Shown here piece by piece: positions 20,176 to 55,693 of a stretch of DNA of 64,000 nt. The notes beneath the pieces were generated by a model. It ran no database searches and had not been told where the DNA came from. It was given only the letters and a program-made list of their open reading frames with translations. Position 1 is the first letter of the stretch. The number at the start of each line of letters is the position of its first letter. The position numbers were made by a program, and so were the translations under genes. Origin of the DNA: a virus; UHGV virus genome UHGV-0275551; one strand, 5' to 3'.

Positions 20176-20206
20176 ATTTAAGGACTCTCGTAAGAATCCT
20201 TAGAAG

Positions 20207-22003: not shown

Positions 22004-22083
22004 ATTAAATCTTTTTAGAGAACTTCTAAGAACCTAAGCAACAAGGTTCCACAACAAGCTGTAATAACCTTAGAAGCCCTCTA

Positions 22084-22104
22084 AAAAGACCTAAATAGGT
22101 CTTT
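22084..22104 (-). terminator. hairpin terminator-like element downstream of the 22247..22588 ORF
   Basis: aaagacc-taaat-aggtcttt hairpin; short T-run on the minus strand. Confidence 0.35.
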
Positions 22105-22698: not shown

Positions 22699-22711
22699 CC
22701 GAAACAATCTT

Positions 22712-22794
22712 TGGCATGGGACGGAGGAGTTGAACCCCTTTGAAACGGTTTTGGAGGCCGTTGCTCATGCCTTAGAGTCTTAACATCGTCCCAT
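22712..22794 (-). tRNA. tRNA with anticodon CCA (Trp?), atypical 83 nt
   Basis: perfect acceptor atgggac/gtcccat, G73, sense anticodon arm ACGGC-CTCCAAA-ACCGT, but the D-region is about 7 nt too long. Confidence 0.35.
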
Positions 22795-22936
22795 ATTATA
22801 ATTCGAAGCTTACCCTGTTATCTCAACACTGTCAAGCTTCTTCTCAGATTATTTACATGTTCTGGAAAACATGAGATACAGACCACCTCCCTACAGGAAG
22901 ACCCACTAAGGCCGTCTAAGTAATCTGCTAACTATT

Positions 22937-23013: not shown

Positions 23014-23259
23014 ATTATCTTTAAAGACTCTCTTAGAAAGCCCTTAAAGATGCCCACCTTATTAATCATACCGTGGGCGAGTACGCCAAATTCTTTGATG
23101 AGGGATTGGAAGACCTCACTGGTGTTTAGCCTATCAAGCTACTGCCAGAAAAACATTGTCGTTTGCATTTATTTTAAATTTGCAAAATAGACGCTACGCA
23201 ACGAAAACTAAGGTTACTATAAAGTAGTCACATCTCAATGTCAACAACTTTATTGAAAT

Positions 23260-23335
23260 TGGTACTGGTAGGTGGAATCGAACCACCGATGTTCCCTTAT
23301 CAGGGGAGTGTTATAACCTTCTTAACTATACCAGC
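23260..23335 (-). tRNA. tRNA-Ile (anticodon GAT)
   Basis: sense anticodon loop CTGATAA; perfect T-arm ggtgg-aatcgaa-ccacc. Confidence 0.6.
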
Positions 23336-23417: not shown

Positions 23418-23493
23418 TGGTAGAAGTGGAGGGATTCGAACCCATCGCCTGTCAGATTAAAAGTCTGCCGCATCACCATTCTGCTACACTTCC
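23418..23493 (-). tRNA. tRNA-Lys (anticodon TTT)
   Basis: sense anticodon loop CTTTTAA; T-arm gaggg-attcgaa-cccat. Confidence 0.55.
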
Positions 23494-23496
23494 ATT

Positions 23497-23640
23497 AAAT
23501 TATCTTTGTAGATAAGCTACCCAGACTTGCTTAAGGTCTGTAGCGATGTGCCTTTTTGGGTTTAAATCTAGAATTTACCCTTTCACCCTTTGTGGTCGCA
23601 TACTCACAGGTAAGCTTAATAACTTATCTACAAAGATAAT
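23497..23640. repeat. 19-bp inverted repeat bracketing about 105 bp inside a tRNA spacer
   Basis: aattatctttgtagataag (left arm) and its exact reverse complement cttatctacaaagataatt (right arm). Confidence 0.55.
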
Positions 23641-23785
23641 TACCAGACCGTTGTTTATCATCTTAAGTGCTACCATTACACCAACTCGACATCTGCCGAG
23701 TGAAGGAATCGAACCTTCGCCTTTTCTTTACCGAGAAATAGATTGTTTAAGTTTTGCTGTAAACGGTCTTCTGTAAATTTGTTGA
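23641..23785 (-). repeat. spacer unit (family shared with 24180-24262 and 24340-24430) containing a tRNA-like T-arm fragment
   Basis: begins taccagaccg, ends ttgctgtaaacggtcttctgtaaatttg; internal gaagg-aatcgaa-ccttc hairpin followed by ttttcttt. Confidence 0.4.
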
Positions 23786-23922
23786 GCCAGACCAAGTTTT
23801 AAATTTTTCAAAATTAAATTGGCTTGAAATTTCATACATTCTTGCTGTATTTGGTCTTCTGCTCCTTTAAAGAATACTCGTAAGAACTCTTTAAGGGAGG
23901 GGCTAAATAGCCCTCTCAAAAT

Positions 23923-24000
23923 TGGCGGTTATGAAGGGATTTGAACCCTCATCATCTCCCGTGACAGGGGAGTATTTTAACCAGATTAAACTACATAACC
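23923..24000 (-). tRNA. tRNA-Asp (anticodon GTC)
   Basis: sense anticodon arm CTCCC-CTGTCAC-GGGAG perfect; acceptor ggttatg/cataacc perfect. Confidence 0.6.
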
Positions 24001-24179: not shown

Positions 24180-24262
24180 ATGTTTAGTATTACCAGACCG
24201 TATCTTTCAATTTTTCCGCTAAAAATTTAATAAATATTGCTGTAAACGGTCTTCTGTAAATT
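24180..24262 (-). repeat. spacer unit between tRNA-Asn and the second CAT tRNA
   Basis: shares taccagaccg start and ttgctgtaaacggtcttctgtaaatttgg end with the 23641-23785 unit. Confidence 0.45.
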
Positions 24263-24339: not shown

Positions 24340-24430
24340 ATTCTTAATGACCAGACCAAATCTCTTCTTTGTCCGATTTACCTTCAGATGAATAAGATTA
24401 AGTTTGCTGTAATTGGTCTTCTGTCAAAAC
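24340..24430 (-). repeat. spacer unit between the CAT tRNA and tRNA-Glu
   Basis: accagaccaaa start and tttgctgtaattggtcttctgtcaaaactgg end, degenerate copy of the spacer family. Confidence 0.4.
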
Positions 24431-24757: not shown

Positions 24758-26173
24758 TTACCAGATATAACGGTCAATCATTACTGCTTTGAGCATTACA
24801 CTGATTGGGTCAAACTTCTCACCACCAAGCAGAGCTTTTAAAGTGGCTGGAGAGAACCCTGATACCATTGCTACACCGTTATCCTTAACAGATACTTCGC
24901 AAGTACCATTACGGTTTGCTAAGTACCAGAATACCAGTTGTGGCATCTCATATCCAGCTTTTTTGTACTTACTCTGAATTGCTTCAAAGTTTGTACGACC
25001 GTTAGCCCCATCAACCTGATTAAACTCCATATCGGAGAAGATGATAAGCTTACTTGGCATATCTTTCTGAGTCAAGTTGTTTCTTTTGCCTGTCTCAAGA
25101 ATACGGTCAAAAGCTGCTTGTAAGTTAGTTGAGCCATATTCAACGTGTCGCATCACCTGACGATGACGGTTTCGTAAATCACCACTCAGTTCGATGAAGT
25201 GAGGGTTTGTTGAATAAACCATCAACTCATTCTTAAAGCAACCTGTATTGCGTTCTGCTACATACAAGGCAAGTGATACACCAATATCCAGAGCAGTAAT
25301 GGAGCCAAAATTCACCCAAGACATTGAACTTGATACATCAGACATACACAAGATGTTTTCACCTTCTGCCATCCAGTTTGGTAGTGCTTTCCACTGCTCA
25401 TTAGCAACATCTGCATTACCATGCTTGACAGATTTAATCACATCGTATGGGTAAACAGCACCAGCATTAATCTTAGCCTCACCTTTTGATAAGGACTCAA
25501 TGTAAGCTTTGTAACGTTCTCCATCCTTACGGTTAAACAGTTTTTGGTAACGTGCAGCAGCAAGTGAGGGAACCTTACTGTAGTCAATCTTGCCAAACTC
25601 ATTAGCAGAGATTTTTTGCTCAACTGTATCAGATAGTGCAGATAACAGTGTGCGGTACTCTTTCTCGCTCAAGTTGGCAAACTTGCAGAAACGTTTTACA
25701 AACTGCTTATGACGTGGTTTGACTCGTGGTAACCACTTAGCCGCCAAACCTGCTGTTGCAGGGTCTAGTAATGCTGCTTCTAAATGTTTGAAGGCATCTG
25801 TCTCGAAACAAGTACCCACGAAGATTTTGAAGTCATCAAAACGACCAAGTTCTGCAATCTTATCCATAATGCGAAGAACCTGTGTAGGCTCTAAAACTTT
25901 ATCTTCAATTGCTTGAAGCAAAACAGTTCTGAAGGCTTTACGCTCACCCATACCTTCTCGTACATCTCGCATATGAAGCAAAATACGAACTGCAACATCA
26001 ACATCCTCACGCAAAGCTTTGTAGAACAAGTCTGGTAAGATTTCTACATTGCTACGGCTTGAACCAGCAGCTTTGTAAAAGTCTACAAGAGCAGACATTG
26101 ATGAAGTATGGTTTACAGCACCATTTTCAGTTCGACCTGCATGAAGGTGCGCATGTTTAAATAATTCGCTCAT
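24758..26173 (-). CDS. vWA-domain protein with about 280-aa helical N-terminal domain
   Basis: 471 aa; MIDAS-like DxSxS (ILCMSDVSSSMSW) and KLIIFSDMEF strand typical of von Willebrand A domains. Confidence 0.55.
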   Translation of the reverse strand: MSELFKHAHLHAGRTENGAVNHTSSMSALVDFYKAAGSSRSNVEILPDLFYKALREDVDVAVRILLHMRDVREGMGERKAFRTVLLQAIEDKVLEPTQVLRIMDKIAELGRFDDFKIFVGTCFETDAFKHLEAALLDPATAGLAAKWLPRVKPRHKQFVKRFCKFANLSEKEYRTLLSALSDTVEQKISANEFGKIDYSKVPSLAAARYQKLFNRKDGERYKAYIESLSKGEAKINAGAVYPYDVIKSVKHGNADVANEQWKALPNWMAEGENILCMSDVSSSMSWVNFGSITALDIGVSLALYVAERNTGCFKNELMVYSTNPHFIELSGDLRNRHRQVMRHVEYGSTNLQAAFDRILETGKRNNLTQKDMPSKLIIFSDMEFNQVDGANGRTNFEAIQSKYKKAGYEMPQLVFWYLANRNGTCEVSVKDNGVAMVSGFSPATLKALLGGEKFDPISVMLKAVMIDRYIW

Positions 26174-26254: not shown

Positions 26255-26626
26255 TTATTTTTTAAGAGTCGCTACAGCAGAGAACGTTGGTTTGTTATCT
26301 GTCTGTTGTTGACCACCATTATCAGGAGTCTTCTTAGTGTCTGCTGCAAGTGCTTTCATCTCACCTGCTGAGTGAGTAAAGATAGTTTTACCTACCTCAA
26401 TCATGCTCTTGATGGTTACGTCGTCTGTGTTTAACCCGAACTCTGCAAGCTTAGCAGCATCCCTTGTAACAATCGCTTCAAATAACTTTGCAGCAAACTC
26501 AGCAGAGTTGTCAATGGTCAGTTGAGCTTTTACAAGTGAGCTTTTGTTGCGAGAGCCTTTTGGTCTTCCAGATGGGTTTCCAGATTGGCCTTTTTTAAAC
26601 TGGCCTTTGTTTGTTCTGTTTTTCAT
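26255..26626 (-). CDS. hypothetical basic protein
   Basis: 123-aa track ORF; N-terminal KGQSGNPSGRPKGSRNK motif; divergent from the plus-strand cluster. Confidence 0.4.
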   Translation of the reverse strand: MKNRTNKGQFKKGQSGNPSGRPKGSRNKSSLVKAQLTIDNSAEFAAKLFEAIVTRDAAKLAEFGLNTDDVTIKSMIEVGKTIFTHSAGEMKALAADTKKTPDNGGQQQTDNKPTFSAVATLKK

Positions 26627-55207: not shown

Positions 55208-55693
55208 TCACTCTGCTCTCCACTGACAATCACCTTGCCACCCATACTCTTTTCTCCAGAGGTTTTGGTTATCAGAACCACGATATGGTTTAACTGTTGG
55301 TTTAGATGAATCATACTTACCATCAATCACCACGTCAACATATTTCATCACATCAAGGTGAATTTTTTCATGTAACTGAAAACCTGTCCAGAGCCAGATA
55401 GATTTTTCTGGGTAAACGGTTTTAATACGTTTGCATATGTTGGTAACCTCTTGAATGTTTCTATCATCCAGAGGTTCTCCACCAAGTATTGACAGCCCAC
55501 TGATGGCATTATCATCCATTAACTTAATGATGCCATAAAGGTTTGCATAAGTGAACTCTTTACCAGCATTAAACTTCCAAGATTCCTTATTAAAGCAACC
55601 TTCACAGTGATGCTTACAACCAGCTACGAAGAGGCTTACACGAACCCCTTCACCATTAGCTGTGTCAAATGGTCGAATCTCCATGTAATTCAT
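55208..55693 (-). CDS. nrdG: anaerobic ribonucleotide reductase activating protein (radical SAM)
   Basis: 161 aa; CxxxCxxC cluster (GCKHHCEGC) near N terminus; same region as NrdD. Confidence 0.7.
   Translation of the reverse strand: MNYMEIRPFDTANGEGVRVSLFVAGCKHHCEGCFNKESWKFNAGKEFTYANLYGIIKLMDDNAISGLSILGGEPLDDRNIQEVTNICKRIKTVYPEKSIWLWTGFQLHEKIHLDVMKYVDVVIDGKYDSSKPTVKPYRGSDNQNLWRKEYGWQGDCQWRAE

What the first reader, a model, noticed from the sequence alone, without database searches (positions are those of the whole stretch)
23497..23640. Perfect 19-bp inverted repeat enclosing about 105 bp within the tRNA array
aattatctttgtagataag and its exact reverse complement flank a segment containing further hairpins. 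A long terminal stem enclosing a structured core is the layout of some stable small RNAs and of small non-autonomous mobile elements. No ORF is present.
Basis: seen in the sequence. Interest (0 to 1): 0.45.

Follow-up and report, generated by a model that had tools for sequence, protein, structure and literature searches.

The report
Conserved structured RNA before phage tRNA-Lys
The inverted repeat is the closing stem of a roughly 144-nucleotide structured non-coding RNA that Felix O1-like phages keep immediately upstream of their tRNA-Lys gene, 1.1 kb downstream of a phage Ro60 homologue, so it is a candidate partner RNA of that protein and not a mobile element.

Summary
A perfect 19-bp inverted repeat (22 nt at 95%) lies at 23498-23641, one base off the stated coordinates, and about 1e-4 such repeats are expected by chance. 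The window is a Felix O1-like phage.

On the minus strand, which is the tRNA strand, the arms form a 24-bp stem. It closes a roughly 95-nt core and ends 4 nt before tRNA-Lys(UUU). Diverged versions occupy the same position in Suspvirus, Mooglevirus, Yersinia phage P778 and uncultured relatives. Their sequence drifts but the pairing is kept:
- In 22 close variants, 100% of cells are paired.
- In 9 distant lineages, 17 of 21 pairs show compensatory changes.
- Many G·U pairs would be A·C mismatches on the other strand.

This is therefore an RNA structure. It is not a MITE: single copy, no target-site duplication, no empty site, and absent from E. coli genomes. No Rfam family matches it.

Three features surround it:
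- A Ro60 (TROVE+vWA) homologue 1.1 kb upstream on the same strand.
- A YrlA-like permuted tRNA mimic that abuts it.
- Four stem/internal-loop/stem modules.

Best reading: a stable RNA processed out of the tRNA precursor that belongs to the phage Ro60/Y-RNA system. Binding is untested, and the element lacks the canonical Ro-binding motif. Main rival: a pure processing or stability hairpin.

The parts
23498..23641 (-). The whole element: a ~144-nt structured RNA domain with a 24-bp terminal stem and a ~95-nt multibranched core.
   Evidence: Minus-strand fold -48.3 kcal/mol, z -5.3. Covariance model R1 scores 138.8 bits on the minus strand against 26.9 bits on the plus strand. Covariation.
23618..23641 (-). 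5' arm of the terminal stem (AAUUAUCUUUGUAGAUAAGUUAUU).
   Evidence: 22 aligned pairs are 100% paired in 22 variants, and 4 of them show double compensatory changes.
23498..23521 (-). 3' arm of the terminal stem (GGUAGCUUAUCUACAAAGAUAAUU). It ends 4 nt (UAAU) before the first base of tRNA-Lys.
   Evidence: The U·G pairs at alignment columns 23/135 and 26/132 are invariant and would be A·C mismatches on the plus strand.
23522..23540 (-). 3' inner hairpin (M3): CAGAC-CUUAAGCAA-GUCUG, a covarying stem with a conserved 9-nt loop (consensus CYUNNRCAA).
   Evidence: The loop is conserved and the stem differs in 9 lineages: CAAACC/GGUUUG, CAGUC/GACUG, CCGUUC/GAACGG, AAAGUC/GACUUU, AGAGAC/GUCUCU. 5 of 6 pairs show double changes.
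23558..23580 (-). Central hairpin GGGUAAAUU-CUA-GAUUUAAACCC, with the AUUCUAGAUU core invariant in Felixounavirus, Suspvirus and Mooglevirus.
   Evidence: helix 2, 100% paired.
23598..23605 (-). 5' interior motif GAGUAUGC (family consensus about GRGUAKGC).
   Evidence: Seen by eye in the sequences: GAGUAUGC, GGGUAUGC, GAGUAGGC, GGGUAGGC. Not tested statistically.
23418..23493 (-). tRNA-Lys(UUU), the invariant downstream neighbour. Its RNase P site would create the element's 3' end.
   Evidence: The element ends 0-10 nt before tRNA-Lys(ttt) in all ten lineages.
23640..23776 (-). Abutting upstream neighbour: a YrlA-like RNA. A stem / AGA-G internal loop / stem encloses a circularly permuted tRNA-like domain (V arm, T arm GAAGGUUCGAUUCCUUC, a 7-bp acceptor-like hairpin closed by AGAU, D arm GUGUAAUGGUAGCAC).
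   Evidence: The acceptor-like hairpin exists in three unrelated sequence versions that all pair. The architecture is that described for YrlA in PMC4201824.
24758..26173 (-). Ro60 (TROVE + vWA) homologue, 471 aa, the first gene upstream of the tRNA array on the same strand.
   Evidence: Pfam DUF2828 + DUF7788. PHROG 850 'RNA-binding protein'. AF2 model pLDDT 90.2. The top 12 Foldseek PDB hits are all Ro60/TROVE. tblastn reaches mycobacteriophage 'Ro-like RNA binding protein'.

Best explanation
The inverted repeat is the closing helix of a conserved, structured, non-coding RNA domain of about 144 nt, encoded on the minus strand inside the phage's tRNA operon.

Proposed mechanism:
1. It is transcribed as part of the polycistronic tRNA precursor. 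A sigma-70-like promoter lies upstream of tRNA-Pro, and no terminator lies in between.
2. RNase P cleavage at the 5' end of tRNA-Lys(UUU), 4 nt downstream, creates its 3' end.
3. The 24-bp stem either blocks 3' exonucleases or is cut by RNase III. Either way a stable RNA is released, the way rRNA and scRNA precursors are excised.
4. The conserved loops (the 9-nt CYUNNRCAA loop, the CUA hairpin, GRGUAKGC) are presented for a partner.
5. The most likely partner system is the phage Ro60 homologue encoded 1.1 kb upstream on the same strand. The element would then be a Y-RNA-like companion of the adjoining YrlA-like tRNA mimic.

Shown here: the repeat, the strand, the conserved structure with covariation, the fixed position before tRNA-Lys, and the Ro60 homology of the nearby gene.

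Inferred: transcription and processing, accumulation as a stable RNA, and any interaction with Ro60.
For: Structure and strand:
- In 22 distinct variants from Felixounavirus, Suspvirus and Mooglevirus, 31 pairs are 100% paired. Five pairs show double compensatory changes. 109 of 682 cells are G·U, which would be A·C on the plus strand. Slid controls give 25-48% pairing.
- In 9 deeply diverged lineages (Ro60-like protein 52-63% identical), 17 of 21 pairs carry compensatory changes. Pairing is 85.7% against 35-52% when slid, and the covariation score is 0.739 against 0.23 or less; 0/500 shuffles reach it.
- The sense fold is more stable than the antisense fold in 9 of 10 lineages.
- Model R1 scores 138.8 bits on the minus strand and 26.9 on the plus strand.

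Position:
- A terminal helix of 20 pairs or more ends 0-10 nt before tRNA-Lys(ttt) in all ten lineages.
- The sequence of the M3 hairpin loop is conserved while its stem covaries.

Context:
- A promoter-like site at 24648-24619 on the minus strand, and no minus-strand terminator before the element.
- The upstream ORF is a Ro60 homologue.
- In the related phage Bas63 the same gene (gp130) was reported as Ro60-like and as a counter to the ppl defence system. The authors guessed that Y RNAs hide among the tRNA genes (PMC11482910).
- Bacterial and phage Y RNAs are encoded within about 4 kb of Ro60 on the same strand, and come as a YrlA plus at least one further Y RNA from one precursor (PMC4201824).
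- The abutting neighbour has the YrlA architecture.
Against: - No transcript, end-mapping or binding data exist for this element.
- It lacks the motif thought to mediate Ro60 binding (GNCGAAN0-1G, or CGAA in a bulged helix). Its stem is almost perfectly paired, without a conserved bulge.
- The four neighbouring S-modules (CAGAAGACC...GGUCUGG with an AGA/G internal loop) look more like a Ro-binding site than this stem does.
- Most of the core differs strongly between type A and types B/C. This would also fit an element whose stem is all that matters.
- Some phages with the Ro60-like gene have no such element before tRNA-Lys (L067, Vibrio phage phi-pp2), and one has only a short 78-nt version (L068).
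- A similar long hairpin precedes tRNA-Leu(UAG) at 22004-22100, which hints at a generic processing role.
- The Rfam Y_RNA/YrlA models do not match.
Confidence: 0.45

Rival explanations
1. A purely cis-acting processing or stability hairpin of the tRNA precursor. The long duplex would be an RNase III site and/or a 3'-exonuclease block and folding insulator. It would separate the YrlA-like RNA from pre-tRNA-Lys and define their ends. The excised core would have no function of its own.
For: - The stem is the best-conserved feature, while most of the core is replaced between type A and types B/C.
- It is wedged 3 nt after the neighbour's stem and 4 nt before tRNA-Lys.
- A second long hairpin with a similar base (UCUUUUUAGAG...CUCUAAAAAGAUUUAAU) sits immediately 5' of tRNA-Leu(UAG) at 22004-22100, with dG -37.6 and z -6.45.
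- Similar hairpins lie before tRNA-Leu(tag) in L061 and before tRNA-Lys(ctt) in L064.
- L068 has a short 78-nt version with almost no core.
- From established knowledge: duplexes of about 20 bp or more are RNase III substrates, and rRNA and B. subtilis scRNA are excised this way.
Against: A processing stem does not need a roughly 95-nt core. Yet a core of similar size is kept in nine lineages, with a hairpin whose 9-nt loop sequence is conserved while its stem covaries and with a recurring GRGUAKGC motif. Most tRNA junctions in the same array manage with 1-8-nt spacers.
Confidence: 0.3
2. A tRNA-Lys-linked decoy or regulator. The element would act on, or protect, the adjacent tRNA-Lys(UUU), for example by distracting host anticodon nucleases that target tRNA-Lys (PrrC, PARIS AriB; this part rests on my own knowledge).
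For: The linkage to tRNA-Lys(ttt) at 0-10 nt is invariant in ten lineages, while the upstream neighbour varies between an S-module, tRNA-Ala and other sequence. In the window, the M3 hairpin (CAGAC-CUUAAGCAA-GUCUG) resembles the tRNA-Lys anticodon arm (CAGA-CUUUUAA-UCUG).
Against: Across lineages the M3 stem does not follow the anticodon stem of the cognate tRNA-Lys. In L060, for example, the anticodon stem is ACUGU/ACAGU and M3 is AAAGUC/GACUUU. The loop has 9 nt, not 7, and carries no UUU. The linkage may simply reflect conserved gene order in the array.
Confidence: 0.08
3. A miniature inverted-repeat transposable element, or the remnant of one, inserted in the tRNA array.
For: Terminal inverted repeats of 19-22 bp, a size of about 144 bp, and no ORF.
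Against: - One copy in the window.
- No match in 5,426 complete E. coli genomes.
- The flanks (cattaa | taccag) show no target-site duplication.
- It occupies the same site in every lineage.
- The arms change by compensatory and G·U substitutions.
- No empty site was found. SP116 lost window ~23451-23698 by recombination between two T-arms.
Confidence: 0.02
4. A DNA-level element: a cruciform-forming palindrome that serves replication, packaging, recombination or homing-endonuclease recognition.
For: It is a perfect 19-bp palindromic pair in DNA, and HNH homing endonuclease genes occur near the array in relatives.
Against: The pairing is strand-asymmetric. 16% of paired cells are G·U on the minus strand, which are A·C mismatches in DNA and on the plus strand. 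Antisense folds are weaker in 9 of 10 lineages. The inner hairpins covary as well.
Confidence: 0.03

Closest known systems
Bacterial and phage Y RNAs (YrlA/YrlB of Salmonella and M. smegmatis; mycobacteriophage YrlA; Yrl1/Yrl2 of Thermus phage phiLo)
   Same: - A ~100-150-nt non-coding RNA whose two ends pair into a long stem around a structured module.
- Encoded within a few kb of a Ro60 homologue, on the same strand.
- Accompanied by a tRNA-mimicking YrlA-type RNA and apparently made from a common precursor (PMC4201824, PMC12135203).
   Different: - No GNCGAAN0-1G or CGAA motif and no conserved bulged helix.
- No T-arm or D-arm in this element.
- It lies downstream of Ro60 inside a tRNA array and is fused to tRNA-Lys.
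- The Rfam Y_RNA/YrlA models do not match.
- Binding to Ro60 is untested.
T4 species 1 and 2 RNAs (rnaC, rnaD), stable RNAs of unknown function in the T4 tRNA cluster
   Same: Small structured non-tRNA RNAs encoded in a phage tRNA gene cluster, on the tRNA strand, directly next to a tRNA.
   Different: No sequence or architectural similarity. rnaC carries a tRNA-like T-arm and no long terminal stem. Model R1 finds nothing in the T4 locus.
RNase III processing stems of stable-RNA precursors (16S/23S rRNA; B. subtilis scRNA)
   Same: Flanking sequences form a duplex of 20 bp or more that encloses a structured RNA within a polycistronic stable-RNA transcript.
   Different: The enclosed RNA is only about 95 nt and has no known function. 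Cleavage is not shown.
MITEs
   Same: Terminal inverted repeats, small size, no ORF.
   Different: Single copy, fixed locus, no target-site duplication, no empty sites, and arms maintained by pairing rather than by sequence identity.

Membership tests
Y RNA (Ro60-associated ncRNA) | Encoded close to (about 4 kb or less) a Ro60/TROVE gene and on the same strand | tested here: met
   The element lies 1.1 kb downstream of ORF 24758-26173, on the same minus strand. That ORF is a Ro60 homologue by fold and by sequence similarity to mycobacteriophage Ro-like proteins.
Y RNA (Ro60-associated ncRNA) | 5' and 3' regions pair into a long stem flanking an internal module | tested here: met
   A 24-bp terminal stem with covariation. 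The true RNA ends have not been mapped.
Y RNA (Ro60-associated ncRNA) | Ro60-binding motif: GNCGAAN0-1G or CGAA in a bulged helix near the 5' end | tested here: not met
   No conserved CGAA in the element. Only two Mooglevirus variants have GCCGAAG and one distant lineage has CACGAAG. In type A the stem is uninterrupted.
Y RNA (Ro60-associated ncRNA) | Physical association with Ro60 | not testable with these tools
   Needs RIP, CLIP or EMSA with the phage protein.
YrlA subfamily (tRNA-mimic Y RNA; Rfam YrlA) | tRNA-like domain with T, acceptor-like and D stem-loops; a match to the Rfam model | tested here: not met
   The element has no T-arm or D-arm, and Rfam gives no match at E<=10. The abutting neighbour 23640-23776 does have the domain, but it also fails the Rfam model.
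MITE / non-autonomous transposon | Terminal inverted repeats | tested here: met
   19 bp perfect, 22 nt at 95%.
MITE / non-autonomous transposon | Target-site duplication, multiple copies, and presence/absence polymorphism with precise empty sites | tested here: not met
   No direct repeat at the flanks. One copy in the window. No match in E. coli genomes. The only element-less relative examined carries a larger T-arm/T-arm deletion.
RNase III-excised stable RNA precursor | A duplex of about 20 bp or more formed by sequences flanking a structured RNA in a longer transcript | tested here: met
   22-26 pairs in the terminal helix in 8 of 10 lineages. In L062 and L066 the helix is interrupted by internal loops.
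RNase III-excised stable RNA precursor | Cleavage by RNase III in vivo or in vitro | not testable with these tools
   Needs end mapping in wild type versus an rnc mutant, or an in vitro cleavage assay.
T4 rnaC/rnaD-type stable RNAs | Sequence or structure similarity to rnaC or rnaD | tested here: not met
   The folds differ, and R1 gives no hit in T4 locus L059.
Intrinsic terminator | A G+C-rich hairpin followed by a U run | tested here: not met
   The scan reports no minus-strand terminator here. The stem is A+U-rich and is followed by UAAU and then the tRNA.

The most novel reading that the evidence does not exclude
The element is a previously unrecognised class of phage RNA that works with the phage-encoded Ro60 homologue and its YrlA-like tRNA mimic in counter-defence or RNA quality control during infection. 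The Bas63 homologue of that protein counters the ppl defence system. In this reading the element would be a third kind of Ro60-associated RNA, distinct from YrlA and YrlB. It would be recognised through its conserved 9-nt loop and long duplex rather than through the canonical CGAA helix, and it would be co-produced stoichiometrically with tRNA-Lys(UUU).
Probability: 0.2. Interest if true: 0.8.

Novelty: new variant of a known kind. Interest (0 to 1): 0.6.

Why it matters
Felix O1-like phages are classic typing and therapy phages. Their Ro60-like gene was recently reported to counter a host defence system (PMC11482910), and the authors could only guess that Y RNAs hide among the tRNA genes.

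This work pins down concrete, covariation-supported RNA candidates:
- the element under review;
- a YrlA-like permuted tRNA mimic directly upstream of it;
- four modules that share one stem/internal-loop/stem.

That makes the question of what RNAs a phage Ro60 uses, and for what, directly testable in a tractable E. coli/Salmonella system. It also adds an unannotated RNA family that is missing from Rfam and currently mis-annotated as hypothetical ORFs in many phage records. Finally, it shows that the gaps in phage tRNA arrays can hold conserved non-tRNA RNAs.

Tried and rejected
- Rfam, all 4,227 families, at E<=1 over 8 kb and at E<=10 over 321 nt: nothing for the element, and only a partial tRNA T-arm match in the neighbour.
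- MITE reading: rejected.
- Coding reading: rejected. This covers Felix O1 'ORF94' and the 'hypothetical protein' calls in several records, because 1-2-nt indels separate near-identical copies.
- Similarity to T4 rnaC/rnaD: none.
- Mimicry of the tRNA-Lys anticodon arm by hairpin M3: rejected, because M3 stems do not track the cognate anticodon stems.
- The R1 hit in Yersinia phage P778 at L060 3281-3399 is a tRNA-Ser with an extended stem, not a homologue. The true P778 homologue was found by eye and with filters off.
- Degenerate pattern scans of IMG/VR gave only known Felix O1-like loci plus chance matches. All 55 new loci lack an adjoining tRNA.
- The window hit at 55589-55640 (19.8 bits) is not a related hairpin.
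- My home-made shuffle control for terminal-helix length was uninformative because the counting was too permissive. I do not rely on it.
- Literature searches for Felix O1 small RNAs or transcriptomes found nothing relevant.

Full report
**Source and observation**

The window is a Felix O1-like myovirus (Felixounavirus). Region 23494-23645 is 100% identical to Salmonella phage Felix O1 (AF320576 24704-24855) and is found in 190 phage records at 94.7% identity or more. ARAGORN finds 26 tRNA genes, all on the minus strand, between 19092 and 24592.

The repeat finder confirms the inverted repeat. The arms are 23498-23519 and 23620-23641, 22 nt at 95% complementarity, with 100 nt between them. The perfect part is 19 bp, one base to the right of the coordinates given. 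About 1e-4 such repeats are expected by chance in this window. The repeat lies between tRNA-Lys(ttt) (23418-23493) and tRNA-Asp (23923-24000).

**Which strand, and is it RNA?**

On the minus strand the arms extend through G·U pairs to a 24-bp helix. This helix closes a four-way core (-48.3 kcal/mol, z -5.3). The plus strand folds less well in the interior.

blastn missed them, but diverged copies occupy exactly the same slot in relatives. That slot lies between the motif ACGGUCUGGUAAU and the first base of tRNA-Lys. The relatives are Suspvirus (SUSP2, mistaenkt), Mooglevirus (Moogle, KPS64, Sf14) and a subset of Felixounavirus (DaR-2019a, DE7, fKMPT1, pSJ21, SPJ41).

For 22 distinct sequences (alignment A2), the 31 pairs of the terminal stem, the central CUA hairpin and the 3' hairpin behave as follows:
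- They are paired in 100% of 682 cells.
- Five pairs show double compensatory changes: UA to CG, CG to UA, CG to GC, GC to UG, GC to AU.
- 109 cells are G·U, which would be A·C on the other strand.
- When the partners are slid by 1-3 columns, pairing drops to 25-48%.

A covariance model built from this alignment scores 138.8 bits on the minus strand and 26.9 on the plus strand. It finds no second copy in the window.

**Deeper relatives**

The ORF next to the array led to more distant phages: Yersinia phage P778 and six Logan/ENA contigs whose homologous protein is 52-63% identical. In every one of them, the 135-170 nt before tRNA-Lys(ttt) fold into a terminal helix of about 20 pairs or more. 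This helix encloses roughly 95-120 nt and ends 0-10 nt before the tRNA. With filters off, the model recovers six of the seven.

In an alignment of nine lineages (A4):
- 17 of 21 pairs carry compensatory double changes.
- 85.7% of cells are paired, against 35-52% in slid controls.
- The covariation score is 0.739, against 0.23 or less, and 0/500 shuffles reach it.

The 3' hairpin (M3) keeps its 9-nt loop (CUUAAGCAA, CUUUAGCAA, CCUUAGCAA, CCUAUGCAA, CUUGAACAA). Its stem, meanwhile, is rewritten pair by pair. The sense fold beats the antisense fold in 9 of 10 lineages, by 2.5-13.5 kcal/mol.

It is met in the opposite sense: there is a lot of drift and the stem is preserved.

**What it is not**

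- Not a MITE. It is single copy and absent from 5,426 complete E. coli genomes. There is no target-site duplication, the locus is always the same, and no empty site was found. Phage SP116 lacks it because window ~23451-23698 was deleted by recombination between the T-arm of tRNA-Lys and the T-arm of the neighbouring tRNA-like domain.
- Not coding. The mechanical ORFs ('ORF94' of Felix O1) are broken by 1-2-nt indels among near-identical copies.
- Not a terminator.
- Not any Rfam family, including ribozymes, Y_RNA, YrlA and tmRNA.
- Not like T4 rnaC/rnaD.

**Context**

The first gene upstream of the array on the same strand (24758-26173, 471 aa) matches Pfam DUF2828 + DUF7788 and PHROG 850 'RNA-binding protein'. 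It carries a DVSGSM MIDAS motif. Its AlphaFold model (pLDDT 90.2, pTM 0.89) matches Ro60/TROVE structures and nothing else over its full length. These include Thermus phage phiLo Ro60, Xenopus and human Ro60, and D. radiodurans Rsr, with E 4.5e-9 to 2e-5 and TM up to 0.64. tblastn links it at 31-34% identity to mycobacteriophage 'Ro-like RNA binding proteins', the phages in which YrlA RNAs were first found (PMC4201824).

A preprint on the Felixounavirus Bas63 noted independently that its gp130 is Ro60-like and counters the ppl defence system. The authors speculated that some 'tRNA genes' are Y RNAs but identified none (PMC11482910).

Directly upstream of the element, sharing two nucleotides with its stem, lies an RNA with the YrlA architecture (23640-23776). 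An outer 4-bp helix, an AGA/G internal loop and an 8-bp helix (AGACCGUU/AACGGUCU) enclose four arms:
- a variable arm;
- a canonical T-arm;
- a 7-bp acceptor-like hairpin closed by a tetraloop;
- a D-arm.

The acceptor-like hairpin occurs in three unrelated sequence versions that all pair, as described for YrlA.

The same stem/internal-loop/stem occurs four times in the array. The 5' strand CAGAAGACC is at 24423, 24256, 23861 and 23773, each paired with GGUCUGG. The outer helix covaries: UGAC/GUCA, UUAC/GUAA, GAGC/GCUC. These modules, not the element's own stem, look like a protein-binding site.

**Mechanism**

*Shown:* a strand-specific, covariation-supported RNA structure fixed immediately 5' of tRNA-Lys(UUU) in an operon headed by a Ro60 homologue.

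*Inferred:*
- The element is co-transcribed with the tRNAs. A promoter-like site lies at 24648-24619, with no intervening terminator.
- RNase P at tRNA-Lys makes its 3' end.
- The 24-bp duplex protects it from 3' exonucleases and/or is cut by RNase III. This releases a stable ~110-150-nt RNA and frees the YrlA-like RNA.
- The conserved loops contact a partner, most plausibly the Ro60-like RNP.

I put 0.45 on this composite. I put 0.30 on the leaner alternative, in which the element is only a processing or stability hairpin. Three observations favour that alternative:
- The core differs strongly between type A and types B/C.
- Similar long hairpins precede tRNA-Leu(UAG) at 22004-22100 and other tRNAs in relatives.
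- A 148-kb relative has only a 78-nt short form.

Against it stand the retained core size and the conserved M3 loop.

A tRNA-Lys decoy role gets 0.08. The M3 stem does not follow the cognate anticodon stem. DNA-level and mobile-element readings get 0.03 or less each.

**Classification**

The element works like a Y-type or stable companion RNA. It cannot be filed as a Y RNA, because the Ro-binding motif was tested and not met, and binding is untested. It is an undescribed RNA family (no Rfam match) in a known general category: stable structured RNAs in phage tRNA operons, and Ro60-linked RNAs. I therefore rate it as a new variant of a known kind.

Noticed in passing
window 23640-23776 (-): A YrlA-like RNA: a stem / AGA-G internal loop / stem enclosing a circularly permuted tRNA-like domain (V arm, T arm, a 7-bp acceptor-like hairpin with an AGAU loop, D arm). 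It is present in 248 phage records. The acceptor-like hairpin exists in three unrelated but always paired versions. It is not called by ARAGORN or Rfam and is often annotated as a hypothetical protein.
   Followed up: partly
window 24345-24430, 24190-24262, 23785-23866, 23640-23776 (all -): Four 'S-modules' between the tRNAs share a 5' strand CAGAAGACC and a 3' strand GGUCUGG. The outer 4-bp helix covaries (UGAC/GUCA, UUAC/GUAA, GAGC/GCUC) and the AGA/G internal loop is conserved. This is a plausible protein (Ro60-like?) binding site. Both motifs are over-represented in the window (5 against 0.5 expected; 12 against 4.1 expected).
   Followed up: partly
window 24758-26173 (-): A 471-aa ORF (DUF2828 + DUF7788) is a Ro60/TROVE+vWA homologue by predicted fold and by similarity to mycobacteriophage Ro-like proteins. 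The family has more than 3,300 relatives in the protein database and is found in 692 phage records, including Vibrio, Listeria, Staphylococcus, Campylobacter and Enterococcus phages. In Felix O1-like and several larger phages it sits next to the tRNA array.
   Followed up: yes
window 26255-26626 (-): A DUF5681 ORF (123 aa) directly precedes the Ro60-like gene here and in five of the six ~90-kb-type relatives examined (L061-L064, L066). This looks like a conserved gene pair.
   Followed up: no
window 22004-22100 (-): A second long hairpin lies immediately 5' of tRNA-Leu(UAG). It has about 31 pairs including G·U, dG -37.6 and z -6.45. Its base (UCUUUUUAGAG...CUCUAAAAAGAUUUAAU) resembles the base of the reviewed element. 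L061 has a counterpart whose stem begins UCUUUGUAGAU.
   Followed up: partly
window 22710-22795 (-): A tRNA-like sequence next to tRNA-Ser(tga), with a long acceptor-like stem, a T-arm (GGGGUUCAACUCCUC) and a 9-nt 'anticodon' loop. ARAGORN does not call it. It has a weak tRNA-Sec model match (23 bits).
   Followed up: no
window 23014-23318 (-): Sub-threshold Rfam matches to permuted tmRNA (29.2 bits, gathering score 47) and tmRNA (15.7 bits) in the 246-nt gap between tRNA-Arg(tct) and tRNA-Ile. They probably arise from tRNA-like parts.
   Followed up: no
window 20177-20201, 23020-23044, 23867-23891: A repeated ~25-nt hairpin-forming motif (minus strand: AAGGAUUCUUACGAGAGUCCUUAAA and variants) occurs three times just downstream of tRNA genes in the array. 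Its function is unknown.
   Followed up: no
L005 (Salmonella phage SP116) 660-730: A natural deletion of tRNA-Lys(ttt), the reviewed element and the 3' part of the YrlA-like RNA. It was created by recombination between the two T-arms and leaves a chimeric tRNA-like gene. Other records (FG1m, ESCO49, ULIM9) show further rearrangements of this stretch.
   Followed up: partly
L060 (Yersinia phage P778) 4500-5080 (-): Three isolated T-arm-containing segments (GGGUUCGAUUCCC) lie in the 690-nt and neighbouring gaps upstream of its version of the element. They may be further permuted tRNA-like or Y-like RNAs.
   Followed up: no
phage records GU169904 (Staphylococcus phage SA1) and MG065664 (Campylobacter phage A132): Both records contain Felix O1-like sequence at 98-99% identity to this region. 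This suggests contamination or a chimeric assembly.
   Followed up: no
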